Shown in pieces: positions 36,304 to 64,000 of a stretch of 64,000 bases of DNA. Location of the stretch: contig NZ_JAEULO010000043.1 of the NCBI RefSeq assembly GCF_016793705.1, forward strand, positions 351-64,350, given 5' to 3'. The notes beneath the pieces are model-generated. The model was not told where the DNA came from. It made no database searches and was given only the letters and a program-made list of their open reading frames with translations. The translations under genes and the position numbers were made by a program. The DNA is from Tabrizicola sp. Its GTDB lineage: Bacteria > Pseudomonadota > Alphaproteobacteria > Rhodobacterales > Rhodobacteraceae. Each line of letters begins with the position of its first letter. The first letter of the stretch is position 1.

Positions 36304-36304
36304 C

Positions 36305-45905: not shown

Positions 45906-45909
45906 GGCG

Positions 45910-47097: not shown

Positions 47098-47109
47098 CCG
47101 GAGACACCC

Positions 47110-48237: not shown

Positions 48238-48242
48238 CCGCG

Positions 48243-48557: not shown

Positions 48558-48558
48558 C

Positions 48559-49469: not shown

Positions 49470-50138
49470 TCAGGCCGCGACCAGCCGCAATATCGTATCG
49501 ATGTTGAAGTGGAGCCGCTCCTCCAGCGCCTCCTTGGTCATGAGGTCGCGCTCGAACACGATGGATCCGGTGAAACGGTTCGTCAGATAGTAATAGCCGA
49601 TGGCGGCGACCGTGATGTTCAACTGCACCGGGTCGACGCCCTTGCGGAAGACGCCCGCGGCAACACCGCGTTCGAGGATCGACTGAACCATCGAGACGAA
49701 TCGGCGGCTGTAGTCCTTCACCGTTTCCGACTTCTTCAGATGCTTGGCGCGGTGCAGGTTCTCGCTGTTCACCAGTGTGATGAATTCCGGGTTCTTCAGG
49801 TAATAGTCCCAGGTGAATCGGACCAGGCGTTCCAGGGCCTCGCGCGGGTCCAGATGGTCGAGATTCAGCTTCTGCTCCGCGATGCGGATATCGAGATAAG
49901 CGTTTTCCAGCACGGTCTGGAACAAGCGTTCTTTCGAATCGAAGTAGTGATAGATCATCCGTTTGTTTGCGCGCGCCTTCTCGGCGATCACGTCCACCCG
50001 CGCGCCGCCCAGGCCGCTCTTTGCAAATTCGCGCTTCGCGGCCTCCAGGATGCGGGCCTTTGTCGCCTCTGCATCCCGGATGCGCGGTTTCTGGGCAGGC
50101 TTCGCCTTCCCTTGGGCTGTGTTCTCACTGGCGTCCAT
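49470..50138 (-). CDS. TetR-family regulator (RutR-like C-domain)
   Basis: ILEAAKREFAKSGLGGARVDVIA, MIYHYF. Start re-assigned to 50138. Confidence 0.92.
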   Translation of the reverse strand: MDASENTAQGKAKPAQKPRIRDAEATKARILEAAKREFAKSGLGGARVDVIAEKARANKRMIYHYFDSKERLFQTVLENAYLDIRIAEQKLNLDHLDPREALERLVRFTWDYYLKNPEFITLVNSENLHRAKHLKKSETVKDYSRRFVSMVQSILERGVAAGVFRKGVDPVQLNITVAAIGYYYLTNRFTGSIVFERDLMTKEALEERLHFNIDTILRLVAA

Positions 50139-50256
50139 CAATCCACTCCCAGGGCATCGGTTTTTGCCGCCTGCGGCGCTGATCCCCTGCCTGCGACCAA
50201 AGCCCGCACTGTTGCAGGTTGCAACAAACATCTTGACTCGGGGGTCAGCTGTCAAG

Positions 50257-50275
50257 TAACCAGTTAGTGCATTAA
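50257..50275 (+). promoter_or_regulatory. Candidate operator/promoter motif copy 1
   Basis: TAACCAGTTAGTGCATTAA. Confidence 0.6.
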
Positions 50276-50368
50276 CGGAGAGGCGTGCGCTGATGACGCA
50301 GGTGTCCGCCCCCGCCGAAGGCAGGGCCACGCTTCCGTGGCATTGGAGTGGAAAAAGGGAGGGAATCC

Positions 50369-51481
50369 ATGTCCACGTTCATCAAGGACTTCGTCGAACG
50401 CGAGAAGATCAACCGTCGGAACTTCCTGTTCGCCTCGGCTGCCGGCCTGACGGCCACGGCAGTTCCGGGCATCCTCGGTCGCGGCGCGGCGTTTGCCGAC
50501 GCGGGTGGCTGGTCGCTGGCCTGGAGCTATCGTGACCGAGCCTCGGCCTACTGGAACGCCATCGTTTCGGGTGGTGAGGCCTATGTCGAGAGCCTTGGCT
50601 TGACCAAGGAAGACATGACGAACCTGATCAACGAGGGGTCGTCCGAAAAGTCGCTCGCCGACATCAAGGCCTTCCTTGCCAAGAATGCCGGCAAGGGCGC
50701 CATTGCCAGCGATCCGAACGACAGCCCGAACGCACGTCCGGTCGTGGAGGCGGTGCGGGACGCTGGCGGCTATGTCTCGACGATCTGGAACAAGACCGAT
50801 GACCTGCATCCCTGGGACATCGGCGACAACTATGTCGCGCACCTGTCCTGGTCGGGCGAAAAGCCCTCGGAGGACGCCGCGCGCCTGCTGTTCGAGAAGA
50901 TGGGTGGAGAAGGCGGCGTCGTCCATCTGGGCGGCATTCCGGCCAACATCCCGGCGGTCGAGCGCCTGAACGGCCTGAAGAACGCTCTGAAGGATTTCCC
51001 GAACATCGAGCTTCTGGACGAACAGTCCGCCGACTGGGACACCAACAAGGCCGCCGAGCTGATGTCGAGCTACCTGACCCGCTATGGCGACAAGATCAAG
51101 GGCGTGCACTGCGCCAACGACAACATGGCCTACGGGGTCATCGAGGCGCTGAAGGCGGAAGGTATTACCGGCATGCCGATCACCGCCTTCGACGGCAACC
51201 CGGAAGCGGTGGATCTGGTGATGAAGGGCGAGCTTCTGGCTACCGTCTTCACCAACCCGCATTGGGGTGGCGGCATCGCGCTGGCCCTGGCGCACCAGGC
51301 CGCCATCGGGGCCTTCAAGCCCTCGGAGGAGCCCAACGAGCATCGCGAGTTCTATGGGCCGTCGATCCTTGTCACTCAGGCAGATGCCGAAGAGTTCAAG
51401 AAGACCTACCTGGACGCGACCCCGACCTATGACTGGACTGATCGTTGGGGCCTGTCGGCGGGCGGTATTGTCTACAAGTAA
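50369..51481 (+). CDS. Sugar ABC substrate-binding protein, Tat-exported
   Basis: INRRNFLFA twin-arginine signal; RbsB-like HCANDNMAYG. Confidence 0.9.
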   Translation: MSTFIKDFVEREKINRRNFLFASAAGLTATAVPGILGRGAAFADAGGWSLAWSYRDRASAYWNAIVSGGEAYVESLGLTKEDMTNLINEGSSEKSLADIKAFLAKNAGKGAIASDPNDSPNARPVVEAVRDAGGYVSTIWNKTDDLHPWDIGDNYVAHLSWSGEKPSEDAARLLFEKMGGEGGVVHLGGIPANIPAVERLNGLKNALKDFPNIELLDEQSADWDTNKAAELMSSYLTRYGDKIKGVHCANDNMAYGVIEALKAEGITGMPITAFDGNPEAVDLVMKGELLATVFTNPHWGGGIALALAHQAAIGAFKPSEEPNEHREFYGPSILVTQADAEEFKKTYLDATPTYDWTDRWGLSAGGIVYK

Positions 51482-51493
51482 GGCCTGACCAAC

Positions 51494-51520
51494 GGGGAAC
51501 CGGGCGCAAGTCCGGTCCCC
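51494..51520 (+). terminator. Stem-loop after the binding-protein gene
   Basis: GGGGAACCGGGC-GCAA-GTCCGGTCCCC. Confidence 0.55.
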
Positions 51521-51562
51521 CAGCCTTTTGCCCCTGCGGGGCTGTCGCCAAGGGAGGGTGGC

Positions 51563-52528
51563 GTGACACGATTTCTGACCCGGGAAGCCGCCATCCGCTG
51601 GGCGCCCCTGCTGGTGCTGATCGCGCTGGTGATCCTGTTCACGGCGATCAATCCGGATTTCTTCGCGCAGCGGAACTTTGCCCGCATTGCGATTGCCGCG
51701 GCGCCCGCCCTGATGGTGGCGATCGGCGTGACCTTCATCATCGTCATGGGCTCGATCGACCTGTCGATGGAGGGCGCGGTTTCGCTGACGGCGGTGCTGT
51801 TCTGCTTCGCCTTCCTGTGGCTGGGGGGCACGTTGGCGGCAGGGGGGTGGCTGGCCATCCCGCTTGCCCTGATCGTCGGAGGACTGATCGGGCTGATCAA
51901 CGGGCTCGTTCATGTCAAGCTGCGCATCCCCTCCTTCATGGCAAGCCTGGCAATGGGGTTTGTCGGGACGGGTGCCGCCGTGCTGATCACCGGCGGCGAT
52001 ATCGTGCGGATCGAGGACGACACTTTCCGGGCGCTTCTGACCTGGCGCATCGCGGGCTTTCCGCTGATGGTCTATGTCGTGGTCATTCTGGCCTTCCTGG
52101 CCTGGTTCATCCAGAACCACACCACGCTGGGTCGGAACTTCTATGCCGTGGGTGGCGGCGAGGAGCTTGCCCACGCCTCGGGGCTGAACGTTCGGCGGGT
52201 TCGGATCACCGGTTTCGTGCTCGCGGGCGTGTTCTATGCCATCGCCGGGATGCTGCAGGTCGCCAAGCTGGGCCAGGCGGAATCGGTCACTGGCGCGAAT
52301 TTCATGTTCATCTCGATCACCTCGGTCGTGGTCGGGGGTGTCGCGCTCTGGGGTGGCATCGGCGGGGTCTGGAACACGGTCGTCGGCGTGCTGATCGTGA
52401 ACGTCATCAACAACGGCATGGTCGTGATCGGACTGCCCGACTATGTGCAGGACGGCATGCTGGGGCTTCTGGTGATCCTGGCAGTGGTCCTCTCGACCGA
52501 CCGGCGCAACATCAGCTTCGTGAAATAG
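51563..52528 (+). CDS. Sugar ABC permease
   Basis: GSIDLSM, IPSFMASL, SVVVGGVALWGG. Confidence 0.92.
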   Translation: MTRFLTREAAIRWAPLLVLIALVILFTAINPDFFAQRNFARIAIAAAPALMVAIGVTFIIVMGSIDLSMEGAVSLTAVLFCFAFLWLGGTLAAGGWLAIPLALIVGGLIGLINGLVHVKLRIPSFMASLAMGFVGTGAAVLITGGDIVRIEDDTFRALLTWRIAGFPLMVYVVVILAFLAWFIQNHTTLGRNFYAVGGGEELAHASGLNVRRVRITGFVLAGVFYAIAGMLQVAKLGQAESVTGANFMFISITSVVVGGVALWGGIGGVWNTVVGVLIVNVINNGMVVIGLPDYVQDGMLGLLVILAVVLSTDRRNISFVK

Positions 52529-52539
52529 GGGGGCGGGCG

Positions 52540-54045
52540 ATGTACGAACTCAAGGCGGTCGACAAGAAGTTTCCCGGTGTCCATGCGCTGAAGGCAGTGG
52601 ATTTCCAGGTCAAGCGCGGTGAGATCGTCGGCCTTGTCGGCGAGAACGGTGCCGGCAAGTCCACCCTGATGAAGGTGATCTACGGCGCCTATCAGCCCGA
52701 CGGCGGCACCATTACCATCGACGGCAAGACCGTGCGCTTCCAGAACCCGCGTCAGGCGATGGAAAAGGGCATCGGCATGGTGTTCCAGGAACAGTCGCTG
52801 ATTTCCAACCTGACGGTCATGGAGAACATCTTCCTGGGTTATGAAGCGCAGTTCGTGCGTCTGGGCGTGATCAACTGGAAGGCCATGGCCGAGGCTGCGC
52901 GAAAGCAACTGGCCAAGGTGAAGCTCGACATCGATCCGGCCACGGTGACGGCCAGCCTGTCCTTTGCGCAGCGCCAGCTGGTCGAGTTGGCCAAGGTGCT
53001 CACGCTTGAGGAGCGGGTCGACGGCGACCTGGTCATCCTTCTGGACGAGCCCACCAGTGTTCTGGCCGAGGACGAGGTCAAGATGCTGTTCCGCATCGTT
53101 CGCGACCTGACGGCACGGGCGAGCTTCATCTTTGTCAGTCACCGCATGGACGAGGTGATGGAGCTTTCCGACCGAATCTATGTGATGAAAGACGGGGCGG
53201 TGGTCGATGTGGTCAACCGGGGCGGCGCCACGGTCGAGCAGATCCAGCACAAGATGGTGGGCCGCAACGTCGACCGGGAATATTACCGTGAGCAGCGCCA
53301 GAAACCCTATGATGACAGCCGCCAGCTGGTGAAGCTGGAGGACGTTGGCCTGCCGGGTCGGATCAGCGACATCTCGCTGACCCTGCATCCGGGCGAGGTA
53401 TTGTGTCTGGTTGGTACCGAAGGCTCGGGCCGCGAGGCGATCCTGCGCACGATCTACGGGATGCGGACCCCCGTGACCGGGCATGTCACGATGAAGGGCG
53501 CGCGGATCGAACGCTTCACCCCGCAGGCGGCGGTCGCGAAGGGCGTCGGCTATGTCCCGCGCGAACGCAAGGTCGAGGGCATCGTCGCGGGGATGAACGT
53601 TTACGAGAACATGACGCTGTCGCAGATGGGTCATTTCTCGAACGCCGGCGTTCTGCGTGTCGGCGAAGAGCGCAAGCTGGCGCGCGACTGGATCGGAAAG
53701 CTGTCGATCAAGGCGCATTCCGAATACGCCGATTGTGGCAACCTTTCAGGCGGGAACCAGCAGAAGGTGGTACTGGCAAAGTGGCGATCCGGCGGGTCGG
53801 ACATCATGCTTCTGGATCACCCGACGCGCGGCCTCGACATCGGCGCCAAGGAAGACGTCTACGAGATGATCCGCGACATGTGCGACGACGGAGTGGGTGT
53901 CATCCTGGTCGCCGACACGCTGGAAGAGGCGATCGGGCTTTCTCACACGATCATCGTCCTCAAGGACGGCCGCATCCAGAAACGCTTTGACTGCGAGCCG
54001 GGCAAGAAGCCTTCGCTTTACGATCTCCTGCACGCGATGATCTGA
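52540..54045 (+). CDS. Sugar ABC ATPase (two-domain, RbsA-like)
   Basis: GENGAGKST, LSGGNQQKVV. Start re-assigned to 52540. Confidence 0.93.
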   Translation: MYELKAVDKKFPGVHALKAVDFQVKRGEIVGLVGENGAGKSTLMKVIYGAYQPDGGTITIDGKTVRFQNPRQAMEKGIGMVFQEQSLISNLTVMENIFLGYEAQFVRLGVINWKAMAEAARKQLAKVKLDIDPATVTASLSFAQRQLVELAKVLTLEERVDGDLVILLDEPTSVLAEDEVKMLFRIVRDLTARASFIFVSHRMDEVMELSDRIYVMKDGAVVDVVNRGGATVEQIQHKMVGRNVDREYYREQRQKPYDDSRQLVKLEDVGLPGRISDISLTLHPGEVLCLVGTEGSGREAILRTIYGMRTPVTGHVTMKGARIERFTPQAAVAKGVGYVPRERKVEGIVAGMNVYENMTLSQMGHFSNAGVLRVGEERKLARDWIGKLSIKAHSEYADCGNLSGGNQQKVVLAKWRSGGSDIMLLDHPTRGLDIGAKEDVYEMIRDMCDDGVGVILVADTLEEAIGLSHTIIVLKDGRIQKRFDCEPGKKPSLYDLLHAMI

Positions 54046-54054
54046 GGGACAGAG

Positions 54055-54996
54055 ATGGATATCCAGCGACTGAAACCGCATTTTCCCTGGATCACCTTGC
54101 TGGTCCTGGTGATCTTCGTCGGCCTGAATGACCCGAACTTCCTGAAACCGGCCAACCTTCTGTCTCTGGCTGGGGATATCGTGCCCCTGTTCATCATGGC
54201 GCTTGGCCTGACCTTCGCAATCTACATCGGCGGGATCGACCTGTCGGCTCAGTCTATGGCGAACATGATCACGGTTGTTGCCTCCGTCTATCTCGCGTCG
54301 CTGGGGATCTGGGTCGCGCTTTTGTGCGTGGCGATCGGCTTTGCCCTCGGGATGCTGTCAGGCTTCATCACCACCCGACTGTTCGTGCCTTCCTTCATCT
54401 CGACGCTGGCTGTCGGCGGGCTGTGCTTTTCGATGGCGCAGTGGCTGTCGGGCAATCGCGCGCTGAACATGGATGCCGCCGAACGCGATGCGCTGTTCGG
54501 CTGGATGATCGGCCGCACCGGTATCATTCCGAACGAACTGTTCCTGGCGGTGGCCTTGCTGGCAATCTGCCTCTTCATCGAACGGCGCACCACGCTCGGC
54601 CGCGCCTTGAAGGCGGTGGGCGCGGGCGAGCTTGCGGCAGCGGCCTCGGGCGTGAACGTGGCCCGCTTCAAGATGCTGGCCTTCGCGATTTCGGGCGCGC
54701 TGGCTGCGGTGGCAGGGCTTCTGTTCGCGGTCAAGCTGTCCGGTGGGGCGCCGACGATTGCCAACGGCTTCCTGTTGCCTGCCATCGTCGCGGTTCTGGT
54801 CGGTGGCACGCCGCTGACCGGCGGCGTGGGCGGGGTGCTGAACACCGCCATAGGTACGCTGATCGTGGCGGTGATCCGGGCCTCGATGCTGTATTTCGGG
54901 GTCGAGGCAACGCAGCAGCAGATGGTCTTCGGACTTGTGCTGATCGCGGCCATCGCGCTGACGATGGATCGGTCCAAGCTGCGGACAGTCAAGTAA
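54055..54996 (+). CDS. Sugar ABC permease 2
   Basis: GGIDLSA, VPSFISTL, AVLVGGTPLTGG. Confidence 0.92.
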   Translation: MDIQRLKPHFPWITLLVLVIFVGLNDPNFLKPANLLSLAGDIVPLFIMALGLTFAIYIGGIDLSAQSMANMITVVASVYLASLGIWVALLCVAIGFALGMLSGFITTRLFVPSFISTLAVGGLCFSMAQWLSGNRALNMDAAERDALFGWMIGRTGIIPNELFLAVALLAICLFIERRTTLGRALKAVGAGELAAAASGVNVARFKMLAFAISGALAAVAGLLFAVKLSGGAPTIANGFLLPAIVAVLVGGTPLTGGVGGVLNTAIGTLIVAVIRASMLYFGVEATQQQMVFGLVLIAAIALTMDRSKLRTVK

Positions 54997-55056
54997 CACA
55001 AGGCAGGCGAGCAGCGGACAAGACGTCGCAGGCGGCGGCTCTTCGTTGACATTTTG

Positions 55057-55075
55057 TAACCAAACAGTTACTTAA
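55057..55075 (+). promoter_or_regulatory. Candidate operator/promoter motif copy 2
   Basis: TAACCAAACAGTTACTTAA, just downstream of a TTGACA (55046-55051). Confidence 0.62.
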
Positions 55076-55116
55076 TGCGCATCGCAGGCGTAAGACGACT
55101 CATGAGGGGGAAGACC

Positions 55117-56613
55117 ATGGACAAGACCACCAGATCGCTTTCGTTGCCCGAAGCCCCGCGCGAATTCGGCTTCTGGTTGGATGGCGTCTGGGAAGCTGGG
55201 CGAGATTTCTTCGACCGCAGTTCCCCGGGGCACGGAACGCCGGTGACGCGCATCCCGAAATGCACGGTGGATGACCTGAACGCCGCCGTTTCCGCCGCGC
55301 GCCGCGCGTTCGAGGATCGCAGCTGGGCCGGCTTGCCGGGGGCCGAGCGGGCCGGGGTACTGCTGCGCACCGCAGAAATCCTGCGTCGCCGCCGCGACGA
55401 GATCGCCTATTGGGAAGTGCTGGAGAACGGCAAGCCCATCGCCCAGGCGCGGGGCGAGATCGACCATGCCATCGCCTGCTTCGAGGTGGGGGCCGGCGCG
55501 GCGCGGATGCTGCATGGCGACAGTTTCAACAGCCTTGGCGACAATCTCTTCGGTATGGTCCTGCGCGAGCCCGTCGGCGTCGTGGGGCTGATCACGCCCT
55601 GGAACTTCCCCTTCCTGATCCTGTGCGAGCGGGTACCCTTCATCCTCGCCTCGGGCTGCACGATGGTGGTGAAGCCTTCGGAAGTGACCAGCGCGACCAC
55701 TCTCCTGCTCGGAGAAATCCTGGCCGAGGCGGGGTTGCCGAAGGGGGTCTACAACGTCGTTACCGGATCGGGCCGAACCATCGGTCAGGCACTGACCGAG
55801 CATCCGGATGTGGACATGCTGTCGTTCACCGGATCGACCGGGGTGGGGCGGTCGGTGGTTCATGCCGCCGCCGACAGCAACTTCAAGAAACTGGGGCTGG
55901 AACTGGGCGGCAAGAATCCGATCATGGTCTTTGCCGATGCCGATCTGGAAGATGCCGCAGACGCCGCCGCCTTTGGCATCAGCTTCAACACCGGCCAGTG
56001 CTGCGTGTCCTCCAGCCGCCTGATCGTCGACCGCCGTGTTGCACTCGAGTTTGAAAAACTTCTGGCGGCCAAGATGAACAAGATCGTCGTCGGAGATCCC
56101 CTGCACGAGACGACCCAGGTCGGGGCCATCACCACGGATGCGCAGAACCAGACGATCCTGTCCTATATCGAAAAGGGCAAGGGCGAGGGGGCAAGAGTCG
56201 TGACCGGCGGCTCTGCGCTGGATCTTGGCCGGGGCAGCTATATTGCGCCGACGCTGTTCACCGGCGTGAAACGGGAAATGTCGATCGCCCGGGACGAGAT
56301 CTTCGGGCCGGTGTTGTCTTCATTCCAGTTCGAGACGGTGGAGGAGGCGATCCAGCTTGCCAACGATACCGTCTACGGGCTGGCGGCAAGCGTCTGGTCG
56401 AAGAACATCGATACCGCGCTAACCGTCTCGCGCCGGGTCCGTGCCGGGCGGTTCTGGGTCAACTGCATCATGGCCGGGGGGCCGGAAATGCCGCTTGGCG
56501 GATTCAAGCAATCCGGCTGGGGCCGCGAAGCTGGCATCTACGGTGTCGAGGAGTACACCCAAGTGAAATCGGTCCATGTCGAAATCGGCAAACGCAATCA
56601 CTGGATCAAGTGA
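55117..56613 (+). CDS. NAD(P)-dependent aldehyde dehydrogenase, L-sorbosone dehydrogenase-like
   Basis: PWNFP, FTGST, LELGGK, GQCCV, EIFGPV. N-terminus PREFGFWLDG...FFDRSSP recalls Gluconobacter SNDH. Confidence 0.85.
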   Translation: MDKTTRSLSLPEAPREFGFWLDGVWEAGRDFFDRSSPGHGTPVTRIPKCTVDDLNAAVSAARRAFEDRSWAGLPGAERAGVLLRTAEILRRRRDEIAYWEVLENGKPIAQARGEIDHAIACFEVGAGAARMLHGDSFNSLGDNLFGMVLREPVGVVGLITPWNFPFLILCERVPFILASGCTMVVKPSEVTSATTLLLGEILAEAGLPKGVYNVVTGSGRTIGQALTEHPDVDMLSFTGSTGVGRSVVHAAADSNFKKLGLELGGKNPIMVFADADLEDAADAAAFGISFNTGQCCVSSSRLIVDRRVALEFEKLLAAKMNKIVVGDPLHETTQVGAITTDAQNQTILSYIEKGKGEGARVVTGGSALDLGRGSYIAPTLFTGVKREMSIARDEIFGPVLSSFQFETVEEAIQLANDTVYGLAASVWSKNIDTALTVSRRVRAGRFWVNCIMAGGPEMPLGGFKQSGWGREAGIYGVEEYTQVKSVHVEIGKRNHWIK

Positions 56614-56614
56614 G

Positions 56615-58216: not shown

Positions 58217-58252
58217 GCACGAAGGGGGGCGGTCGTGCCGCCCCGTCGCGCT

Positions 58253-59071
58253 TCAGTCGAAATCGGGGGCGTAGGGCACCCGGTCCCTGCTGATGATGCG
58301 GTAGCCAGTAGCTGTCATCGCCTCGATCCGCGCCATGTCGATCGCCGACAGGGTGAAGTCCATGACCTCGTAATTCGCGCGGATGTTGGCAGGTCTCGTC
58401 GACATGGTGTTGATCGTGACACCCTTTTGCAAAATCCAGCGCAGCGCGACCTGGGCGGCGGACTTGCCGTAGCCCGCACCGATTTCCGCGAAGAGCGGAT
58501 ACTTGAACACCTCGCCCCGCGCGACCGAGCAGAAGGAGGACAGCGGGATGCCGGTCTCGATCGACGCAGCCAGCAGGCGTGACTGGTCGAGGAGGGGATG
58601 AAACTCCACCTGGTTGGTCACAAGCGGCGTGTCGAGCAGGCCTCGCGCATGGCGCATCATGGCGGCGGTGTGGTTGGAAAGGCCGATGTTCGTTGCCAGT
58701 CCGCGCTTGTGGGCCTGATCCAGAAGGCGCAACGAAAGATCGATCTCGCCGCCCGGTGTGGGCCAGTGGAGAAGCAGGACGTCCACCCGGTCCACCCGCA
58801 ATGCCTTCAGCGAAGCCTCGACCGAAGGCAGGAAACGCGCTTCGGTATAGTTCTCGACCCCAACCTTGGTGGTGATGCACAACCGGTCGCGCGGCACGCC
58901 GCATTCGGCCAGCGCCGCGCCGGTGTCGGCCTCGTTGCCGTACATCTGCGCCGAATCAAAAGCGCGATAGCCCACGTCGACGGCGGCGAAGATCGCAGCG
59001 CGCAGATCATCTCCCTTCAACGGGAAAGTGCCAAACGCGCGCTGATGATTAAGCTGAAACAGGATGTTCAT
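58253..59071 (-). CDS. Aldo-keto reductase (DkgA/DkgB-like)
   Basis: FDSAQMYGNE, ITTK, LLLHWP, NQVEFHP. Start re-assigned. Confidence 0.88.
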   Translation of the reverse strand: MNILFQLNHQRAFGTFPLKGDDLRAAIFAAVDVGYRAFDSAQMYGNEADTGAALAECGVPRDRLCITTKVGVENYTEARFLPSVEASLKALRVDRVDVLLLHWPTPGGEIDLSLRLLDQAHKRGLATNIGLSNHTAAMMRHARGLLDTPLVTNQVEFHPLLDQSRLLAASIETGIPLSSFCSVARGEVFKYPLFAEIGAGYGKSAAQVALRWILQKGVTINTMSTRPANIRANYEVMDFTLSAIDMARIEAMTATGYRIISRDRVPYAPDFD

Positions 59072-59163
59072 TGTCGCTTCCCCCTCTGTCTTCTGTCCGT
59101 AGCCGAATGGGCCGGACTGCAACTGACCCCTTGAAATCAGTCGCGACTCTGAGTATCTAGTTA

Positions 59164-59182
59164 TAACTGGTTAGTTACTTAA
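59164..59182 (+). promoter_or_regulatory. Candidate operator/promoter motif copy 3
   Basis: TAACTGGTTAGTTACTTAA. Confidence 0.62.
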
Positions 59183-59206
59183 ATGAAACCCCGAAAGGAA
59201 CGAGCG

Positions 59207-60778
59207 GTGTCGAAGGTCAGGACTCCAGCCCAGGCAGCGCGGCTTGTCGCCGATGGCGCAACCGTCGCCGTCAATTCGTCGTCCGGGCTGCTTTGCCCCG
59301 ATGAAGTGCTGAAGGCCCTGGGTGAACGCTTCCTGACGGAAGGCGCGCCGCGCGATCTGACGACCGTTCATCCCATTGCCGCAGGTGACATGTTCGGCAC
59401 AAAGGGTGTGGATCACATCGCGCACAAGGGCATGATCCGGCGCATCATCGGGGGTTCCTACCCCTCTGGGCCGACAAATGCCGAACCGCCGCTGATCTGG
59501 CAGCGGATCCTGGCCGAGGACCTGGCCGCCTGGAACGTGCCCTCGGGCATCATCTTCGACATGCTGCGCGAGGGTGCTGCGAAGCGGCCCGGCGTGCTGA
59601 CCAAGGTGGGGATGGACACTTTCGTCGATCCGGAACTGGATGGCTGCGCGATGAATGCCAGCGCACGGGCGATGCCGCTGGTCCGGCGGATGGATTTCGA
59701 CGGGGACACCTGGCTTCACTTCCCGGCAATCCGGCCCGATGTGGCGATCATCCGTGCCTCGACCGCCGACGAGAATGGCAACCTGACCTTCGAGCAGGAG
59801 GGGGCGACGCTGGGCGCCATGGAAATGGCGCTGGCCGCCCGCAATTCTGGCGGGCTGGTCATCGCCCAGGTGCGGCGGGTGGCCGCGCAGGGGACGCTGA
59901 AGCCGCATGACGTGCGGGTTCCGGGGATCCTGGTCGATGTCATCGTCGAGGCGCCTGACCAGCTTCAGACCACGGCGACCGCCTATGATCCGGCGATTTC
60001 GGGCGAACTGTTCCGACCGCTGCACACCTTCCGCCGGGCCGAGTACAACCCGGCGAAGGTGATGGCGCGCCGCGTGGCGATGGAACTGAGGGACGGCTGG
60101 GCGGTGAACATCGGCTTCGGCATTTCGGCGAATGTACCACGCATCCTTCTGGAGGAGGGGCTGCACGGTAAGGTGACATGGGTCATCGAGCAGGGCGCGG
60201 TGGGCGGGGTGCCGCTTCTGGACTTCAAGTTCGGCTGTGCCGCCAATGCCGAGGCCTTCGTCGCCTCGCCGCACCAGTTCCTGTATTTCCAGGCGGGTGG
60301 GTTTGATTGTTCGCTGCTGTCGTTCCTGGAGGTCGGCGCGGACGGCTCGGTCAACGTCAGCCGCCTGTCGGCAACGCCGCACCGCACGGCCGGGGCGGGC
60401 GGGTTCGTTGACATCACCTCTCGCGCGCGGAAGATCGTTTTCAGCGGCAACTTCAACGCCGGCGCAAAGATGCGGCTGGAGGACGGGCGCCTTGTCATCG
60501 ACAAGGAGGGCAGGATCGCCAAGTTCGTGTCCCGGGTCGATCAGGTCAGCTTTTCGGGCAAGCGCGCGCTGGCGCAGGGGCAGGACGTGACCTATGTCAC
60601 CGAACGCTGCGTCATCCGCCTGGAGGAAGAGGGGCTGACCGTGACCGAGATAGCGCCCGGACTGGATTTGCAGCGCGACATCCTGGATCAGGCCGCGACG
60701 CCTCTGCGCATCTCGCCCGGTCTCAAGGAAATGGACGCAGCGCTGTTCCGGCCGGAACCTCTGGGACTGGTTCTGTGA
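59207..60778 (+). CDS. Family I fused acyl-CoA transferase (YdiF/Pct-like)
   Basis: RPGVLTKVGMDTFVDP, ADENGNL, catalytic-Glu segment IEQG, GAGGFVDI. GTG start after AAAGGA. Confidence 0.88.
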   Translation: MSKVRTPAQAARLVADGATVAVNSSSGLLCPDEVLKALGERFLTEGAPRDLTTVHPIAAGDMFGTKGVDHIAHKGMIRRIIGGSYPSGPTNAEPPLIWQRILAEDLAAWNVPSGIIFDMLREGAAKRPGVLTKVGMDTFVDPELDGCAMNASARAMPLVRRMDFDGDTWLHFPAIRPDVAIIRASTADENGNLTFEQEGATLGAMEMALAARNSGGLVIAQVRRVAAQGTLKPHDVRVPGILVDVIVEAPDQLQTTATAYDPAISGELFRPLHTFRRAEYNPAKVMARRVAMELRDGWAVNIGFGISANVPRILLEEGLHGKVTWVIEQGAVGGVPLLDFKFGCAANAEAFVASPHQFLYFQAGGFDCSLLSFLEVGADGSVNVSRLSATPHRTAGAGGFVDITSRARKIVFSGNFNAGAKMRLEDGRLVIDKEGRIAKFVSRVDQVSFSGKRALAQGQDVTYVTERCVIRLEEEGLTVTEIAPGLDLQRDILDQAATPLRISPGLKEMDAALFRPEPLGLVL

Positions 60779-61548
60779 GCGACGAGCGGCTTGATCTGGT
60801 CATCTCCGACGGCATCGCCACGCTGACGATCCGCCGGGCCGAGAAGCACAATGCGCTGGACGCCGAGATGGTCGACGCGCTCATGCCGCTATGCCGCAAG
60901 ATCGAACGGTCGGATGCTTTCGTGGTGATCCTGACTGGCGAGGGTGGCAAGGCGCTGAGCGCGGGCGGGGATATCTCCGCCTGGTCGGCGCTGTCGCCAG
61001 AGGATTTCGGGCGGCACTGGCTGCGCGACGGGCATCAGGCCTTCGACTCCCTGGCCCGTCTGCGCCAGCCGGTCATCGCGGTGCTGAACGGCAGTGCCCT
61101 TGGTGGAGGACTGGAGCTTGCCGCCTGCGCCGATCTGCGCATCGCCGAGTCTCATGTCAAGATCGGCCTGCCGGAAACCGGGCTGGGCATCATTCCGGGC
61201 TGGTCCGGCACCCAGCGCACGTCCCGGCGTTTCGGCGGGCAGGTGGTCCGCCGGATGGCCCTGTTCGGCGAGGTGTTCGGCGCGGACGAGGCGCTGCGGC
61301 TTGGGCTCGTCGATCAGGTGGTGGTGACGGGGGCCGGCATGGATGCGGCGATGGAGCTTGCCGCCCGGCTGAGGGCCCGGTCGTCGCGGGCGACAGAACT
61401 CGTCAAGATGCTGGTCAACGCAGCCGAGGGTGAGGAACAAGGGCGTGTTCTGGAGGCGCTGGCCGGAACCGTTGCCGCCGCCTCGCCCGACCTGGCCGAG
61501 GGGCTGGCTGCCTATCGGGAGCGGCGCAAGCCGGACTTCCGGAAGTGA
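60775..61548 (+). CDS. Enoyl-CoA hydratase/isomerase (crotonase)
   Basis: AGGDI, GGGLE and LPE (both catalytic Glu positions present). Confidence 0.9.
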   Translation: MSDERLDLVISDGIATLTIRRAEKHNALDAEMVDALMPLCRKIERSDAFVVILTGEGGKALSAGGDISAWSALSPEDFGRHWLRDGHQAFDSLARLRQPVIAVLNGSALGGGLELAACADLRIAESHVKIGLPETGLGIIPGWSGTQRTSRRFGGQVVRRMALFGEVFGADEALRLGLVDQVVVTGAGMDAAMELAARLRARSSRATELVKMLVNAAEGEEQGRVLEALAGTVAAASPDLAEGLAAYRERRKPDFRK

Positions 61549-62804
61549 ACGGGCAGGACCGCGCCTTCCTGACCGGCCTGTTCGAAGCCGTCGTCATGGC
61601 GGCGGACCCACGGAATGCGCTTGCCACCAATCTGCCAGAGCCGCCCAGGGGCCGGACGGTGGTGATCGGCGCGGGCAAGGGCGCGGCTCAGCTCGCGGCG
61701 GCGTTTGAAACCTTGTGGCGGGGTCCGTTCGAGGGCGTGGTCGTCACGCGCTATGGCTACGGATGTCCCACGCGGCAGATCAAGGTGATCGAAGCTTCCC
61801 ATCCCGTTCCCGATGCGGCCGGGTTGGCGGCCAGCGCGTCGCTGTTCGACGCCGTAAGCGGTCTTACATCAGACGATCTGGTCGTGGTGCTGGTCTGCGG
61901 CGGCGGCTCGGCGCTGCTTCCCTGCCCGGCGGGCGGCCTGACGCTGGAGGACGAGATTGCGCTGAATCGCGCTCTCTTGGCTTCCGGGGCGCCGATCTCG
62001 GTGATGAACGCAATCCGGAAGCAGGTTTCAGGCATCAAGGGCGGACGGCTTGCTCTGGCCTGTCATCCAGCGCGGGTGGTGACGCTGGTCGTCTCGGACG
62101 TTCCGGGGGACGATCCGGCGCAGGTGGCGTCCGGCCCCACGGTTCCCGATGCAACAACGCGCGCGGCGGCGCGAGCCATGGCGCTGCACTGGAGGGTCGA
62201 TCTGCCTCCGCGCGTTGCGACCTGGCTGGAGGGCGACGACGGCCTGGCTCCCGATCCGGCGGACCCGCGTTTTGCCGCCAACGAGGTGAAGGTCATTGCC
62301 TCGGCCCGCCTGTCGCTGGAATCGGCGGCGGCCCGGGCAGAAGGGCAGGGTGTTCCAGCCGTGATCCTGTCAGATGCGATCGAGGGAGAGGCACGCGACG
62401 TTGGCCGGGTCCACGCCGCCATCGCCCGGGAGGTGGCGCAGCGAGACAGGCCATTTGCAAAGCCCGTGGTCATTCTGTCGGGCGGAGAAACCACAGTGAC
62501 GCTGCGCGGCGCGGGACGTGGCGGCCGCAACAGCGAATTCCTGCTGGCGCTGGCATTGGCCGCGGAAGATGTGCCCTTCGCGGCACTGGCTGCTGATACC
62601 GATGGGATCGACGGCTCCGAGGTCAACGCTGGCGCATTTGCCACGGGCGCGACGGCCAGCCGCTTGCGCGCGATCGGGCTTGATCCGGCGCAGCTTCTTG
62701 CCGGCAACGATAGCTATACTGCTTTCGCCGCGCTGACTGACCTGTTCGTGCCAGGGCCGACTGGCACCAATGTGAATGATTTCCGCGCCATCCTGCTGCG
62801 CTGA
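61545..62804 (+). CDS. Glycerate 2-kinase (TtuD/MOFRL family)
   Basis: IGAGKG, EASHPVPD, GGGSAL, GGETTV, GTNVND. Confidence 0.9.
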   Translation: MNGQDRAFLTGLFEAVVMAADPRNALATNLPEPPRGRTVVIGAGKGAAQLAAAFETLWRGPFEGVVVTRYGYGCPTRQIKVIEASHPVPDAAGLAASASLFDAVSGLTSDDLVVVLVCGGGSALLPCPAGGLTLEDEIALNRALLASGAPISVMNAIRKQVSGIKGGRLALACHPARVVTLVVSDVPGDDPAQVASGPTVPDATTRAAARAMALHWRVDLPPRVATWLEGDDGLAPDPADPRFAANEVKVIASARLSLESAAARAEGQGVPAVILSDAIEGEARDVGRVHAAIAREVAQRDRPFAKPVVILSGGETTVTLRGAGRGGRNSEFLLALALAAEDVPFAALAADTDGIDGSEVNAGAFATGATASRLRAIGLDPAQLLAGNDSYTAFAALTDLFVPGPTGTNVNDFRAILLR

Positions 62805-62811
62805 GGCCGGG

Positions 62812-63267
62812 TCAGACCTGCATCATCAGCTGGTTGCGACCGCTCTGCACCACTTCGTCGTACTGATTCAACGCAGAAACCTCGAAGCTGACGATCCCGC
62901 GATCCGCCCTTCTGCTCAGGCGCTTGCCCTCGACCACCAGAACCGAGCGAATGCTGTCGCCCAGCAGAACGGGCGCATGGAAGCTCCAGCTCCAGTTGAG
63001 CGAGGCAATCGCGGCCAGTTGCGCCGGGGCCTGGTTCTTGAGCCCGTCGATCACTGACAGCACAAGAAGCCCATGCGCCACCCGGGTCGGAAACCCGAGC
63101 CTCCGGGCGGCGGCTTCGTCCATGTGAAGGGCGAAGCGGTCGCCGCTCAGATCGGCGAACCGATCTATCATTCCGTCATCGATCATGGCGCGCCCGGTCT
63201 CGATCCGGTCGCCGACGGCAAGGTCGCCGTAGCGATGCATGCCTGCCGCAAGACGTCGGCCCGTCAT
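62812..63267 (-). CDS. MaoC-family (hot-dog) acyl-CoA dehydratase
   Basis: FADLSGDRFALH hydratase-2 motif; VAHGLL. Confidence 0.85.
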   Translation of the reverse strand: MTGRRLAAGMHRYGDLAVGDRIETGRAMIDDGMIDRFADLSGDRFALHMDEAAARRLGFPTRVAHGLLVLSVIDGLKNQAPAQLAAIASLNWSWSFHAPVLLGDSIRSVLVVEGKRLSRRADRGIVSFEVSALNQYDEVVQSGRNQLMMQV

Positions 63268-64000
63268 GCCGGAACCGGCGCGTCTTCGCGCAGCAGACCT
63301 TTCGCTTTCAGTGCCTGCCAGAAGGCGGCGGGGATGGAGTGGTTGAACCAGTCGAGGTTCTGCCGCAGCTGGTCGACCGTCCGGGTCCCGGCGCAGAAGG
63401 ACGGGATGGCCGGATGCGCGACCACGAACTGCAAGGCAGCCGCGGGCAGCGGCACCTTGTACTCGGCGCAGACCGCCTCGATCCGGGCAACTTTCTGCAT
63501 CACGTCGGAGGGGGCGGCCGAGTAGTTGTATTTGGCGCCCGGTCTTGCCCCGGTGGCCAGGATGCCCGAGTTGAACCCGCCGCCGACCAGCACCGCCGCA
63601 CCACGCGCTTCGCAGAGGGGAAGGAATTCGTCCAGCGCATCCTGTTCCAGCAGGGTATAGCGCCCCGCCAGCAGGAAGCAGTCGAAGTCGCGCTGCTTCA
63701 GCGCCTCATGGCAGACCTGCCACTCGTTCACGCCGACACCGATGGCCTTGACCACCCTTTCGTCCCGCAGTCTTGCAAGTGCCTTGTAGCAGCCGTCCAT
63801 GGCCTGCCGGAACACCTCAGGCTGATCCTTGCCGCGGGTATAAACGTCGATGTCATGGATGAAGAGGATGTCGATCCGCTCCAGCGCAAGGCGCTGAAGG
63901 CTGTCCTCGAACGATCGCATGGTGCCGTCATAGCTATAGTCGAATTCGATGGTGAAGGGTCCGGCGTTTACCCAGGGTGCATAATTGATCGTCTCGCGCC
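63264..64000 (-). CDS. Aldo-keto reductase, D-threo-aldose/L-fucose 1-dehydrogenase-like; 5'-truncated by the window end
   Basis: Frame stays open beyond the tracked start (FDYSYDGTMRSFEDSLQRL); LLAGRYTLLEQ, GGFNSGILA. Confidence 0.85.
   Translation of the reverse strand, partial: RETINYAPWVNAGPFTIEFDYSYDGTMRSFEDSLQRLALERIDILFIHDIDVYTRGKDQPEVFRQAMDGCYKALARLRDERVVKAIGVGVNEWQVCHEALKQRDFDCFLLAGRYTLLEQDALDEFLPLCEARGAAVLVGGGFNSGILATGARPGAKYNYSAAPSDVMQKVARIEAVCAEYKVPLPAAALQFVVAHPAIPSFCAGTRTVDQLRQNLDWFNHSIPAAFWQALKAKGLLREDAPVPA

What the first reader, a model, noticed from the sequence alone, without database searches (positions are those of the whole stretch)
49470..64000. Candidate undescribed CoA-dependent sugar-acid catabolic system
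Seen: sugar ABC, GMC oxidoreductase, ALDH and two sugar-type AKRs are clustered with a fused CoA transferase, a crotonase (both catalytic Glu present), a MaoC dehydratase and glycerate 2-kinase, and the three plus-strand units share a promoter motif. I see no enolase-superfamily or IlvD sugar-acid dehydratase, aldolase or hexose kinase in the window. Established: characterised sugar-acid routes usually dehydrate the free acid. Inference: here the acid is activated as a CoA thioester, dehydrated or cleaved by hot-dog and crotonase enzymes, and enters glycolysis as 2-phosphoglycerate. The cluster continues past the window end.
Basis: inference. Interest (0 to 1): 0.8.

Follow-up and report, generated by a model that had tools for sequence, protein, structure and literature searches.

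The report
Sorbose-oxidising, CoA-dependent sugar catabolic gene cluster
The genes are real and form one conserved, co-regulated cluster: known vitamin-C-route enzymes (L-sorbose to 2-keto-L-gulonate) joined to an uncharacterised CoA-transferase / acyl-CoA dehydrogenase / DUF993 module that ends at glycerate kinase.

Summary
The cluster runs past the window end. A contig 99.4% identical to the window adds an acyl-CoA dehydrogenase, a FabG-like SDR, DUF993 and a xylose-isomerase-like TIM barrel.

The cluster recurs in about 80 species of Rhodobacterales, Rhizobiales (including S. meliloti pSymA) and Gluconobacter. One palindromic operator, TAAC-N6-GTTA, lies upstream of the dehydrogenase, CoA-transferase and acyl-CoA dehydrogenase units and almost nowhere else. 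This looks like a single TetR regulon.

The ALDH and GMC genes are orthologues of the characterised Gluconobacter L-sorbosone and L-sorbose dehydrogenases. Those characterised genes sit inside this same cluster. The entry steps are therefore known: L-sorbose to L-sorbosone to 2-keto-L-gulonate.

The lower pathway appears undescribed.
- Crotonase and MaoC are accessory and are absent from Gluconobacter clusters.
- The core is CoA-transferase, ACAD/ETF, SDR, DUF993, TIM barrel and glycerate kinase.
- DUF993, just outside the window, is a remote DHDPS/NAL (class I aldolase) relative, so "no aldolase" is not safe.

CoA-dependent sugar-acid catabolism ending in glyceryl-CoA, glycerate and 2-phosphoglycerate has a genetic precedent in Klebsiella deoxyribonate use. 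I rate this a new variant of a known kind.

The parts
49470..50138 (-). TetR-family repressor (TetR_N + TetR_C_29), divergent from the ABC operon
   Evidence: Pfam. An orthologue sits at the same position in Paracoccus, Sagittula, S. meliloti and Gluconobacter. The start at ATG 50138 is inferred from orthologue length and the sequence.
50255..50268 (.). Operator-like site, variant type (AGTAACCAGTTAGT), in the TetR-SBP intergenic region next to a TTGACT -35-like box
   Evidence: Single occurrence in the window, 0.03 expected. The same AAGTAAC(C/T)AGTTAGTGC is conserved upstream of the SBP in 7 of 9 loci inspected. A similar site lies next to AKR2 in L087.
50369..51481 (+). Periplasmic sugar-binding protein (Peripla_BP_4, CUT2 family)
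   Evidence: Pfam. Best PDB match is 2rjo, E 2e-83. NCBIfam matches only weakly to allose/ribose binders.
51563..52528 (+). ABC permease 1 (BPD_transp_2)
   Evidence: Pfam; syntenic in 43/61 loci.
52540..54045 (+). Fused double ABC ATPase
   Evidence: Pfam; start chosen from the frame analysis.
54055..54996 (+). ABC permease 2 (BPD_transp_2)
   Evidence: Pfam.
55057..55070 (.). Operator palindrome TAACCAAACAGTTA overlapping a TTGACA-N17-TACTTA promoter-like site upstream of the ALDH
   Evidence: 2 hits in 64 kb against 0.02 expected. Present upstream of the ALDH in 11/60 related loci.
55117..56613 (+). NAD(P)-dependent aldehyde dehydrogenase, orthologue of L-sorbosone dehydrogenase (SNDH)
   Evidence: PDB 7w5l/7w5k, E 1e-267. 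76.9% identity to the crystallised SNDH. The GQCCV Cys pair is present. The 498-aa gene call comes from the near-identical contig L088.
56615..58216 (+). FAD-dependent GMC oxidoreductase, orthologue of L-sorbose dehydrogenase (SDH); no signal peptide, FAD motif at the N-terminus
   Evidence: Pfam. 70-74% identity to the Gluconobacter cluster GMCs. Those GMCs match 20/20 wild-type residues published for WSH-004 SDH.
58253..59071 (-). Aldo-keto reductase 1, DkgB-like (2,5-didehydrogluconate reductase type); accessory
   Evidence: NCBIfam NF008377, 217 bits, below cutoff. Present in 50/67 loci and absent in Gluconobacter.
59164..59177 (.). Operator palindrome TAACTGGTTAGTTA just downstream of a TTGAAA-N17-TATCTA promoter-like site, upstream of the CoA-transferase
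   Evidence: The same palindrome lies upstream of the CoA-transferase in 76/80 loci.
59207..60778 (+). Fused family-I CoA-transferase (YdiF / propionate-CoA-transferase type)
   Evidence: Pfam PF01144. PDB YdiF 2ahu, E 3e-101. Orthologues are 79-88% identical across three orders. Candidate catalytic Glu in EQG.
60775..61548 (+). Crotonase-family enoyl-CoA hydratase, both catalytic Glu present; accessory
   Evidence: Pfam and motifs. Present in 57/70 loci and absent in all Gluconobacter clusters.
61545..62804 (+). Glycerate 2-kinase (DUF4147 + MOFRL)
   Evidence: Pfam. NCBIfam glycerate 2-kinase models match below cutoff. In the cluster in 45/70 loci, including all Gluconobacter loci.
62812..63267 (-). 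MaoC-type (R)-specific hydratase/dehydratase; accessory
   Evidence: Pfam; GDRFALH motif; only 16/55 loci.
63264..64000 (-). Aldo-keto reductase 2 (338 aa in full), cut by the window end; accessory
   Evidence: 86% identity to residues 95-338 of the P. versutus orthologue, with no frameshift. Complete in L087.

Best explanation
This is one TetR-controlled catabolic regulon for L-sorbose or a closely related ketose/polyol.

Shown by orthology to characterised enzymes: the cytoplasmic FAD-dependent GMC enzyme (SDH) oxidises L-sorbose to L-sorbosone. The NAD(P)-dependent ALDH (SNDH) then oxidises L-sorbosone to 2-keto-L-gulonate.

Inferred entry steps: the sugar enters through the CUT2 ABC transporter. 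Accessory Zn-ADH and AKR enzymes, where present, funnel related compounds to the same acid. One example is 2,5-diketogluconate through the DkgB-like AKR.

Inferred lower pathway: the acid is degraded by a conserved module that lies partly beyond the window end. My favoured order is as follows.
1. DUF993 (a DHDPS/NAL-like enzyme with a candidate Schiff-base lysine) and its partner TIM-barrel isomerase act on the free 2-keto acid. They split or rearrange it into short hydroxy acids.
2. The YdiF/Pct-like CoA-transferase activates a short hydroxy acid, probably C3, as a thioester.
3. The SCAD/AcrC-like acyl-CoA dehydrogenase passes electrons to ETF and ETF-QO. It, the FabG-like SDR and, where present, crotonase/MaoC carry out alpha/beta chemistry on the thioester to give glyceryl-CoA.
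4. The CoA-transferase returns the CoA and releases D-glycerate.
5. Glycerate 2-kinase makes 2-phosphoglycerate.

The TetR repressor binds the TAAC-N6-GTTA operators in front of each unit and is presumably released by a pathway intermediate.
For: Gene content and intact catalytic motifs.

Link to characterised enzymes:
- The window ALDH is 76.9% identical to crystallised SNDH.
- SNDH is 98.8% identical to the cluster ALDH of Gluconobacter L078/L080.
- The adjacent cluster GMC matches 20/20 published wild-type residues of WSH-004 SDH.
- SDH and SNDH activities and SNDH specificity are reported in PMC7092628 and PMC10602560.

Synteny across 80 species-level loci:
- GMC 62/67, ALDH 56/67.
- ACAD 49/55, SDR 50/55, DUF993 50/55, TIM 49/55.
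- All six together in 39/49 loci.
- Gluconobacter has a compact same-strand array of SNDH-SDH-CoAT-GlyK-ACAD-SDR-DUF993-TIM-ETFbeta-ETFalpha-ETF-QO.

Independent set: at least 58 of the 60 listed plasmid records with an SNDH-like gene also carry the CoA-transferase on the same record; in those whose coordinates I compared the two genes lie about 4-5 kb apart.

The window's own lineage: L087 is 99.4% identical over 6.5 kb and adds AKR2 | ACAD-SDR-DUF993-TIM.

Shared operator:
- 2 hits in the window against 0.02 expected.
- 76/80 loci upstream of the CoA-transferase and 58/60 upstream of the ACAD.
- All 174 occurrences in 1.45 Mb fall at positions that correspond to the regions upstream of the ALDH, the CoA-transferase and the ACAD.
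- Present upstream of the ACAD in L087.

Modularity: Szabonella has the CoA module with TRAP transporters and a CoA ligase but no SDH, SNDH or ABC genes.

DUF993: Foldseek returns only DHDPS/NAL enzymes after its own paralogue 4dnh. The invariant 'VDGIKIS' lysine is conserved in the paralogue. It aligns, weakly, with the KdgD Schiff-base lysine.

CoA-transferase and ACAD: the nearest characterised relatives act on C3-C4 acyl groups (YdiF; AcrC, Bcd, SCAD).

Precedent for glyceryl-CoA to glycerate to glycerate kinase: PMC6365646.
Against: - No experiment links the CoA genes to sorbose or 2-keto-L-gulonate.
- From memory, the established L-sorbose assimilation route in Gluconobacter goes through sorbose reductase, and 2-keto-L-gulonate is classically reduced to L-idonate. 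SDH/SNDH may have a different natural substrate.
- No thiolase or other obvious C-C-cleaving thioester enzyme is in the cluster.
- The steps between 2-keto-L-gulonate and glyceryl-CoA are guesses.
- The role of an acyl-CoA dehydrogenase on a hydroxylated short acyl-CoA is unprecedented.
- The DUF993-to-DHDPS link rests on a poor model (pLDDT 59) and an hhalign probability of 0.5%.
- Glycerate kinase is missing from 25/70 clusters and ETF from about half.
- The ligand of the SBP is unknown.
Confidence: 0.55

Rival explanations
1. The six-carbon acid itself (2-keto-L-gulonate, or L-idonate/L-gulonate after reduction) is activated as a CoA thioester. It is then processed at the thioester level in a beta-oxidation-like sequence of ACAD, hydratase and SDR, and cleaved there to give glyceryl-CoA. 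DUF993 and the TIM barrel act on CoA esters or on side products.
For: ACAD-SDR-DUF993-TIM are translationally coupled in one operon. The SDR is FabG-like, that is, thioester-type. The ACAD has the canonical catalytic Glu. The Szabonella variant adds an acyl-CoA ligase next to TRAP acid transporters. The Klebsiella deoxyribonate route activates the whole sugar acid.
Against: The nearest characterised relatives of the CoA-transferase and ACAD use C3-C4 acyl groups. There is no thiolase. The hydratases are missing from all Gluconobacter clusters. A 2-ketoacyl-CoA has no alpha-hydrogen for an ACAD. The closest solved relatives of DUF993 (SMc04132, 4dnh) and of the TIM barrel (SMc04130, 3ju2) are both S. 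meliloti proteins whose locus tags differ by two, so they appear to be near-adjacent there; the only nearby genes I saw named are oxidoreductases and an ABC binding protein (table in PMC12542648), not CoA genes.
Confidence: 0.25
2. The architecture is the same but the physiological substrate is not L-sorbose. SDH/SNDH act in vivo on another ketose, polyol or hydroxy-aldehyde, such as L-erythrulose, another L-ketose or a 6-deoxy-ketose. The 2-keto-L-gulonate activity would then be a biotechnologically exploited side or parallel activity.
For: SDH has low activity on sorbose (PMC7092628). From memory, Gluconobacter assimilates sorbose through sorbose reductase. The SBP has no close characterised relative. 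The window enzymes are only about 70-77% identical to the characterised ones.
Against: SNDH was the most specific for L-sorbosone among about 35 compounds tested (PMC10602560). The DkgB-like AKR would converge on the same acid (PMC6923176).
Confidence: 0.3
3. There are two unrelated systems: a sugar oxidation operon and a short-chain acyl-CoA operon that merely lie side by side.
For: The units are on alternating strands with their own promoters. Some loci carry the CoA module alone (L010, L015).
Against: All six core genes co-occur in 39/49 loci across three orders. At least 58 of the 60 listed plasmid SNDH hits have the CoA-transferase on the same record. The units share an operator found essentially nowhere else. 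In Gluconobacter the genes form one same-strand array.
Confidence: 0.03

Closest known systems
[quoted passage not shown]
   Same: The ALDH then GMC gene pair is in the same order. The window ALDH is 76.9% identical to the crystallised SNDH and keeps the Cys-Cys active-site pair. The characterised genes lie in the orthologous cluster in Gluconobacter.
   Different: The literature treats the pair as a production tool for 2-keto-L-gulonate. Its embedding in a CoA-transferase/ACAD/DUF993/glycerate-kinase regulon was not mentioned in any paper I could search. The window version also has an ABC importer and extra reductases.
CoA-dependent deoxyribonate catabolism of Klebsiella michiganensis (Price et al. 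2019, PMC6365646)
   Same: A sugar acid is degraded through acyl-CoA intermediates. A CoA-transferase is proposed to release glycerate from glyceryl-CoA, and a clustered glycerate kinase feeds 2-phosphoglycerate.
   Different: The Klebsiella cluster uses a CoA synthetase, a beta-hydroxyacyl-CoA dehydrogenase and a thiolase. It has no ACAD/ETF, no DUF993/TIM pair and no GMC/ALDH. Its substrate is a 2-deoxy acid. The evidence there is genetic; here it is only comparative.
E. coli cai/fix carnitine system (from memory)
   Same: It works alike in outline: a CoA-transferase cycle on a polar hydroxy acid, combined with a crotonase, an acyl-CoA dehydrogenase homologue and a dedicated ETF plus ETF-quinone oxidoreductase. 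The ACAD matches the crotonobetainyl-CoA dehydrogenase model at 168 bits.
   Different: CaiB is a family-III transferase and this one is family I. Cai runs reductively under anaerobiosis. Cai has no sugar dehydrogenases, DUF993 or glycerate kinase.
Classical free-acid sugar-acid routes (dehydratase plus DHDPS/KDPG-type aldolase; fungal L-galactonate route giving pyruvate and L-glyceraldehyde)
   Same: DUF993 is a remote DHDPS/NAL relative with a conserved lysine. An L-configured hexonate would give an L-glyceraldehyde-level fragment that an AKR can reduce (PMC5488244 abstract).
   Different: There is no enolase-superfamily or IlvD dehydratase and no sugar-acid kinase. DUF993 has no assigned function. 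The CoA/ACAD/ETF genes have no place in the classical routes.

Membership tests
Gluconobacter SDH/SNDH (L-sorbose to 2-keto-L-gulonate) pair | ALDH-family enzyme orthologous over its full length to crystallised SNDH | tested here: met
   892 bits, E 1e-267 to 7w5l; 76.9% identity over 493 residues.
Gluconobacter SDH/SNDH (L-sorbose to 2-keto-L-gulonate) pair | Adjacent Cys295 and catalytic Cys (reversible disulfide) in the active site | tested here: met
   The window ALDH has NTGQCCVSSSRL, aligned to GQCCVSSSRL of 7w5l. The feature is described in the PMC10602560 abstract.
Gluconobacter SDH/SNDH (L-sorbose to 2-keto-L-gulonate) pair | GMC flavoprotein immediately downstream, orthologous to the characterised FAD-SDH | tested here: met
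   The GMC starts 1 nt after the ALDH stop. It is 70-74% identical to the Gluconobacter cluster GMCs. Those of L078 and L081 match 20/20 published WSH-004 SDH residues.
Gluconobacter SDH/SNDH (L-sorbose to 2-keto-L-gulonate) pair | Catalytic activity on L-sorbose and L-sorbosone | not testable with these tools
   Needs an enzyme assay of the window proteins.
Klebsiella-type CoA-dependent deoxyribonate pathway | Acyl-CoA synthetase that activates the sugar acid | tested here: not met
   No AMP-binding enzyme in the window cluster or its continuation. One occurs only in the Szabonella variant.
Klebsiella-type CoA-dependent deoxyribonate pathway | Thiolase that cleaves the 3-ketoacyl-CoA to glyceryl-CoA | tested here: not met
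   No thiolase in the window, in L087, or in the annotated flanks of the Paracoccus, Sagittula and S. meliloti loci.
Klebsiella-type CoA-dependent deoxyribonate pathway | Clustered CoA-transferase and glycerate kinase | tested here: met
   CoA-transferase 59207-60778 and glycerate kinase 61545-62804 lie in one operon. They are directly adjacent in Gluconobacter.
cai/fix-type CoA-transferase cycle | Family-III (CaiB-type) CoA-transferase | tested here: not met
   The enzyme is PF01144, family I, YdiF-like.
cai/fix-type CoA-transferase cycle | Crotonase plus ACAD homologue plus dedicated ETF / ETF-QO | tested here: met
   The crotonase is in the window and the ACAD is in L087. ETFbeta/alpha are in 22-23/50 loci, and ETF-QO is in the Gluconobacter L066 cluster.
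Classical dehydratase/aldolase sugar-acid route | Enolase-superfamily or IlvD/EDD sugar-acid dehydratase | tested here: not met
   None among the window ORFs scanned or in the annotated syntenic loci.
Classical dehydratase/aldolase sugar-acid route | Class I (Schiff-base lysine) 2-keto-acid aldolase of the DHDPS/NAL family | tested here: inconclusive
   DUF993 lies just beyond the window. Foldseek hits are all DHDPS/NAL, E about 1e-6, TM 0.37-0.49, from a low-confidence model. The invariant GIK lysine is conserved in paralogue 4dnh. The hhalign probability is only 0.5%.
TetR-type single-repressor regulon | One palindromic operator repeated in front of each transcription unit next to a divergent TetR gene | tested here: met
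   Binding itself was not tested.

The most novel reading that the evidence does not exclude
DUF993 is a 2-keto-L-gulonate aldolase that yields hydroxypyruvate and L-glyceraldehyde. The CoA genes form a CoA-transferase cycle that rescues the 'wrong-handed' L-configured C3 half.

In this reading, L-glycerate is converted to L-glyceryl-CoA. Its C2 centre is inverted on the thioester. One route would be oxidation by an acyl-CoA dehydrogenase acting on a 2,3-dihydroxyacyl-CoA, followed by reduction by the FabG-like SDR. The other, where present, would be dehydration and rehydration by the crotonase/MaoC pair. D-glyceryl-CoA then hands its CoA to the next L-glycerate, and D-glycerate is phosphorylated to 2-phosphoglycerate.

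This would mean a new function for DUF993, a new ACAD substrate class and a new way of handling L-series sugars.
Probability: 0.15. Interest if true: 0.85.

Novelty: new variant of a known kind. Interest (0 to 1): 0.65.

Why it matters
- It would give a physiological context to the SDH/SNDH pair used for one-step vitamin C precursor production. It would also point to a candidate drain on 2-keto-L-gulonate yield in production strains: the CoA/ACAD/DUF993 genes directly downstream.
- It would assign a first function to DUF993 and its partner TIM barrel. Relatives of both in S. meliloti have solved structures but no known role.
- It would add a second, enzymatically different example of CoA-thioester chemistry in sugar-acid catabolism.
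- It offers an easy experimental system, because the cluster lies on S. meliloti pSymA and on Paracoccus and Gluconobacter replicons that are genetically tractable.

Tried and rejected
- I suspected a frameshift or pseudogene in the last AKR. Rejected: the frame is open to the window end and aligns without gaps to the orthologue.
- I considered that the upstream ABC / 2-HADH / DUF4432 / desaturase / Rieske / PanB-like cluster (41876-49392) belongs to the system. Rejected: it has its own LacI regulator and is not syntenic in any related locus.
- Megablast hits covering only the ABC-to-AKR1 part (P. kondratievae H6) or only ALDH-GMC-AKR1 (Roseateles H7) suggested a 'dehydrogenase-only' version. 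Rejected: both plasmids carry the full cluster.
- Literature searches for DUF993 (0 papers) and for guessed S. meliloti SMa locus tags gave nothing usable. So did 'pSymA + sorbose' and sorbosone dehydrogenase combined with CoA terms.
- A 2026 JBC paper on L-threonate 3-dehydrogenase describes a different, kinase/decarboxylase cluster.
- Mauchline 2006 and Saito 1997 are not held.
- The search for homologous proteins on DUF993 returned only unnamed orthologues of at least 78% identity.
- The AlphaFold model of DUF993 from a shallow alignment was poor (pLDDT 59), so the fold search is only indicative.
- hhalign of DUF993 against two DHDPS-family sequences was not significant.
- NCBIfam gave no equivalog-level name for any lower-pathway enzyme.
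- I could not derive a unique chemical route from 2-keto-L-gulonate to glyceryl-CoA.
- I considered beta-oxidation of a 4,5-dihydroxypentanoyl-CoA, 3-keto-L-gulonyl-CoA thiolysis and a 2,4-diketo-3-deoxy hydrolase route. Each either lacks a needed enzyme or does not yield glycerate.

Full report
**1. Observation**

The window has about 65% G+C, so raw ORF lists are noisy. Third-position GC and frame plots leave one gene per stretch in 49470-64000.
- a TetR regulator
- a CUT2-type sugar ABC transporter (binding protein, two permeases, fused ATPase)
- an ALDH and a GMC flavoprotein
- a DkgB-like aldo-keto reductase on the other strand
- a fused family-I CoA-transferase, a crotonase and a MOFRL/DUF4147 glycerate 2-kinase
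- a MaoC hydratase and a second aldo-keto reductase on the other strand

Catalytic motifs are intact in the crotonase (both Glu), MaoC (Asp/His) and the CoA-transferase.

The last reductase is not truncated by mutation. Its frame is open to base 64000 and aligns to residues 95-338 of its 338-residue orthologue.

The rest of the window holds lpt/kdsD, flagellar, nos, imuB/dnaE2 and Ku/LigD genes, plus a second LacI-regulated sugar ABC cluster. I found no enolase-superfamily or IlvD dehydratase, aldolase or sugar kinase.

**2. The cluster is larger than the window and is conserved**

Megablast against plasmids found the same gene order at 75-79% nucleotide identity in Paracoccus, Sagittula and Ensifer. 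The annotated records continue beyond the second reductase with:
- an acyl-CoA dehydrogenase
- a '3-ketoacyl-ACP reductase' (an SDR)
- a 'dihydrodipicolinate synthase family protein'
- a sugar-phosphate isomerase/epimerase
- often ETF beta and alpha

Pfam shows the 'DHDPS family' protein is DUF993 and the isomerase is AP_endonuc_2.

An exact-protein look-up with the window's MaoC found contig L087. It is 99.4% identical to window bases 57471-64000 and extends 4.9 kb further. It carries the complete second reductase, then divergently ACAD (380 aa), SDR (255 aa), DUF993 (382 aa) and the TIM barrel (282 aa).

A genome-collection scan with the CoA-transferase returned 80 species-level loci at 79-88% protein identity. 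They come from Rhodobacterales, Rhizobiales (Shinella, Mesorhizobium, Ensifer, Rhizobium) and Acetobacteraceae, mainly Gluconobacter. I tabulated neighbours by tblastn, using only loci with enough flank as denominators:

| Gene | Loci with gene / loci with enough flank |
|---|---|
| GMC | 62/67 |
| ALDH | 56/67 |
| ACAD | 49/55 |
| SDR | 50/55 |
| DUF993 | 50/55 |
| TIM barrel | 49/55 |
| all six above together | 39/49 |
| crotonase | 57/70 |
| glycerate kinase | 45/70 |
| Dabb-family protein | 24/70 |
| MaoC | 16/55 |
| second reductase (AKR2) | 35/55 |
| first reductase (AKR1) | 50/67 |
| ABC transporter | about 43/61 |
| Zn-ADH (absent from the window) | 42/61 |

Gluconobacter carries a stripped-down, same-strand array. 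It reads TetR | SNDH-like ALDH, GMC, CoA-transferase, glycerate kinase, ACAD, SDR, DUF993, TIM barrel, ETF beta, ETF alpha, ETF-quinone oxidoreductase. It has no ABC transporter, reductases, crotonase or MaoC.

In the independent plasmid collection, 62 records hold an SNDH-like gene. At least 58 of the 60 listed also carry the CoA-transferase on the same record; in those whose coordinates I compared, including S. meliloti 1021 pSymA, the two genes lie about 4-5 kb apart.

**3. Co-regulation**

- It occurs exactly twice in the 64-kb window against 0.02 expected. Both sites sit on promoter-like hexamers just upstream of the ALDH and the CoA-transferase.
- A related site, AGTAACCAGTTAGT, lies between the TetR gene and the binding-protein gene.
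- Across the 80 loci the palindrome is upstream of the CoA-transferase in 76/80, of the ACAD in 58/60 and of the ALDH in 11/60.
- All 174 occurrences in 1.45 Mb fall at positions that correspond to these three upstream regions.
- It is conserved from Rhodobacterales to Gluconobacter.
- It is present upstream of the ACAD in the window's own lineage.

With a divergent TetR gene conserved at the cluster edge, the simplest reading is one repressor controlling all units. Binding itself is inferred.

**4. The entry enzymes are known**

[quoted passage not shown] Identity is 76.9%, and the window enzyme keeps the GQCCV cysteine pair.

That SNDH is 98.8% identical to the cluster ALDH of Gluconobacter loci L078 and L080.

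Shan et al. [quoted passage not shown] The GMC protein next to the ALDH matches 20/20 in L078 and L081 and 19/20 in L082. More distant orthologues match about 10/20.

The two characterised genes therefore lie inside this cluster. SDH converts L-sorbose to L-sorbosone, SNDH converts that to 2-keto-L-gulonate, and SNDH preferred L-sorbosone among about 35 compounds. The window proteins are orthologues at about 70-77% identity, so the assignment is by orthology and not by assay.

The DkgB-like reductase resembles 2,5-diketogluconate reductases, which also make 2-keto-L-gulonate (PMC6923176). This fits convergence on that acid, but it is inference.

**5. The lower pathway**

Nothing in the curated libraries names these proteins at equivalog level.
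- **CoA-transferase.** The nearest structure is E. coli YdiF.
- **ACAD.** It has the canonical YEG glutamate. It is closest to acryloyl-CoA reductase AcrC, butyryl-CoA and short-chain dehydrogenases.
- **SDR.** It is FabG-like.
- **DUF993.**
  - It has a solved but uncharacterised paralogue, S. meliloti SMc04132 (4dnh).
  - No searchable paper mentions DUF993.
  - A low-confidence model (pLDDT 59) still retrieved only DHDPS and N-acetylneuraminate-lyase structures after 4dnh.
  - An invariant 'VDGIKIS' lysine is conserved in the paralogue. It lines up, without statistical weight, with the Schiff-base lysine of KdgD.
- **TIM barrel.** Its nearest structure is SMc04130 (3ju2), which by locus tag lies close to SMc04132, the DUF993 paralogue. 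DUF993 and this barrel may therefore form a recurrent pair; I did not inspect that neighbourhood.
- **Szabonella variant.** The CoA/ACAD/DUF993 module sits with TRAP transporters and a CoA ligase, without SDH, SNDH or ABC genes. This suggests the module can start from an imported acid.

**6. Mechanism**

*Shown by orthology:* L-sorbose to L-sorbosone to 2-keto-L-gulonate.

*Shown by comparative genomics:* these steps belong to one conserved, probably co-regulated unit with a CoA-transferase, an ACAD with its own electron-transfer chain, an SDR, DUF993, a TIM barrel and glycerate 2-kinase.

*Inferred and favoured, about one in three for the specific order:*
1. DUF993 with the TIM barrel acts on the free 2-keto acid, the substrate class of all DHDPS/NAL enzymes.
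2. A short hydroxy acid is activated by CoA transfer.
3. ACAD and the SDR, plus the hydratases where present, work on the thioester to give glyceryl-CoA.
4. The transferase recycles the CoA and releases D-glycerate.
5. Glycerate kinase makes 2-phosphoglycerate.

I cannot exclude it, because operon coupling of ACAD-SDR-DUF993-TIM and the FabG-like SDR fit it. The C3-C4 character of the nearest CoA-transferase and ACAD relatives argues against it, as do the lack of a thiolase and the absence of hydratases in Gluconobacter. I could not write a unique chemical route. The routes I tried are listed under Tried and rejected.

**7. Comparison with known systems**

- The entry pair is a member of the SDH/SNDH family. 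Every sequence-level criterion was met and activity was not testable.
- The whole system works like the CoA-dependent deoxyribonate route proposed for Klebsiella michiganensis, which runs glyceryl-CoA to glycerate by a clustered CoA-transferase and then to glycerate kinase (PMC6365646). It fails the membership test because it has no CoA synthetase and no thiolase, and it adds ACAD/ETF and DUF993/TIM.
- In architecture it also resembles the E. coli cai/fix carnitine system (from memory), but it uses a family-I transferase.
- It is not a classical dehydratase/aldolase route, although DUF993 may be a cryptic class I aldolase.

**8. Novelty and verdict**

- The linkage of sugar oxidation to CoA chemistry is real, and I found no description of it in the searchable literature.
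- The substrate guess is good.
- The catalytic emphasis on crotonase and MaoC is wrong.
- The 'no aldolase' premise is undermined by DUF993 just outside the window.
- CoA-dependent sugar-acid catabolism has a precedent.

I rate it a new variant of a known kind, with interest 0.65. It offers a testable physiological role for industrially used enzymes and a first functional lead for DUF993.

Noticed in passing
window 40690-49392: A separate LacI-regulated CUT2 sugar ABC cluster. It is followed by a D-2-hydroxyacid dehydrogenase, DUF4432, a membrane fatty-acid-desaturase-like protein, a small Rieske protein and a truncated-looking PanB-like (ketopantoate hydroxymethyltransferase) protein. This is an unusual combination for a sugar locus, and it is not syntenic with the finding in other genomes.
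   Followed up: partly
L073, L077, L079 (Gluconobacter vitians, G. roseus), about 1.7-3.2 kb upstream of the CoA-transferase: The SDH-like GMC reading frame is only 231-379 codons long instead of 531 in these loci. In L077 the SNDH-like ALDH matches in two pieces. The entry dehydrogenases may be decaying there while the CoA module stays intact.
   Followed up: no
L084 619-1225 (S. meliloti M162 pSymA): A ParD/ParE toxin-antitoxin pair is inserted between the GMC gene and the first aldo-keto reductase of the cluster.
   Followed up: no
L001 1-5772 (P. versutus pTAV3, upstream of the cluster): A second CoA-type cluster lies next to the TetR gene. It holds an FAD oxidoreductase, a family-III CoA-transferase, an enoyl-CoA hydratase-related protein, a ferredoxin, a true DHDPS-family protein and an ALDH. 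It is not present in the window.
   Followed up: no
window 13980-22808: A complete-looking nitrous oxide reductase cluster on the minus strand: nosR-like FMN/4Fe-4S protein, nosZ, nosD, nosF, nosY and apbE.
   Followed up: no
window 22796-28171 and 33026-37300: A putative imuA-like ORF (not scanned), a possible imuB (assigned from gene order, not scanned) and an error-prone DnaE2-type polymerase. Separately, a Ku - LigD - Ku non-homologous end-joining set.
   Followed up: no
L087 2-139: In the window's own lineage the gene after the TIM barrel starts like a class-III aminotransferase. It is not ETF, so ETF is encoded elsewhere in this organism.
   Followed up: partly
L085 (plasmid labelled Roseateles sp. 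XES5): The full cluster sits on a plasmid assigned to a betaproteobacterium. The record is flagged UNVERIFIED_ORG, and the genes are 84% identical at the protein level to the window's alphaproteobacterial ALDH and CoA-transferase. The cause may be contamination or recent transfer.
   Followed up: no
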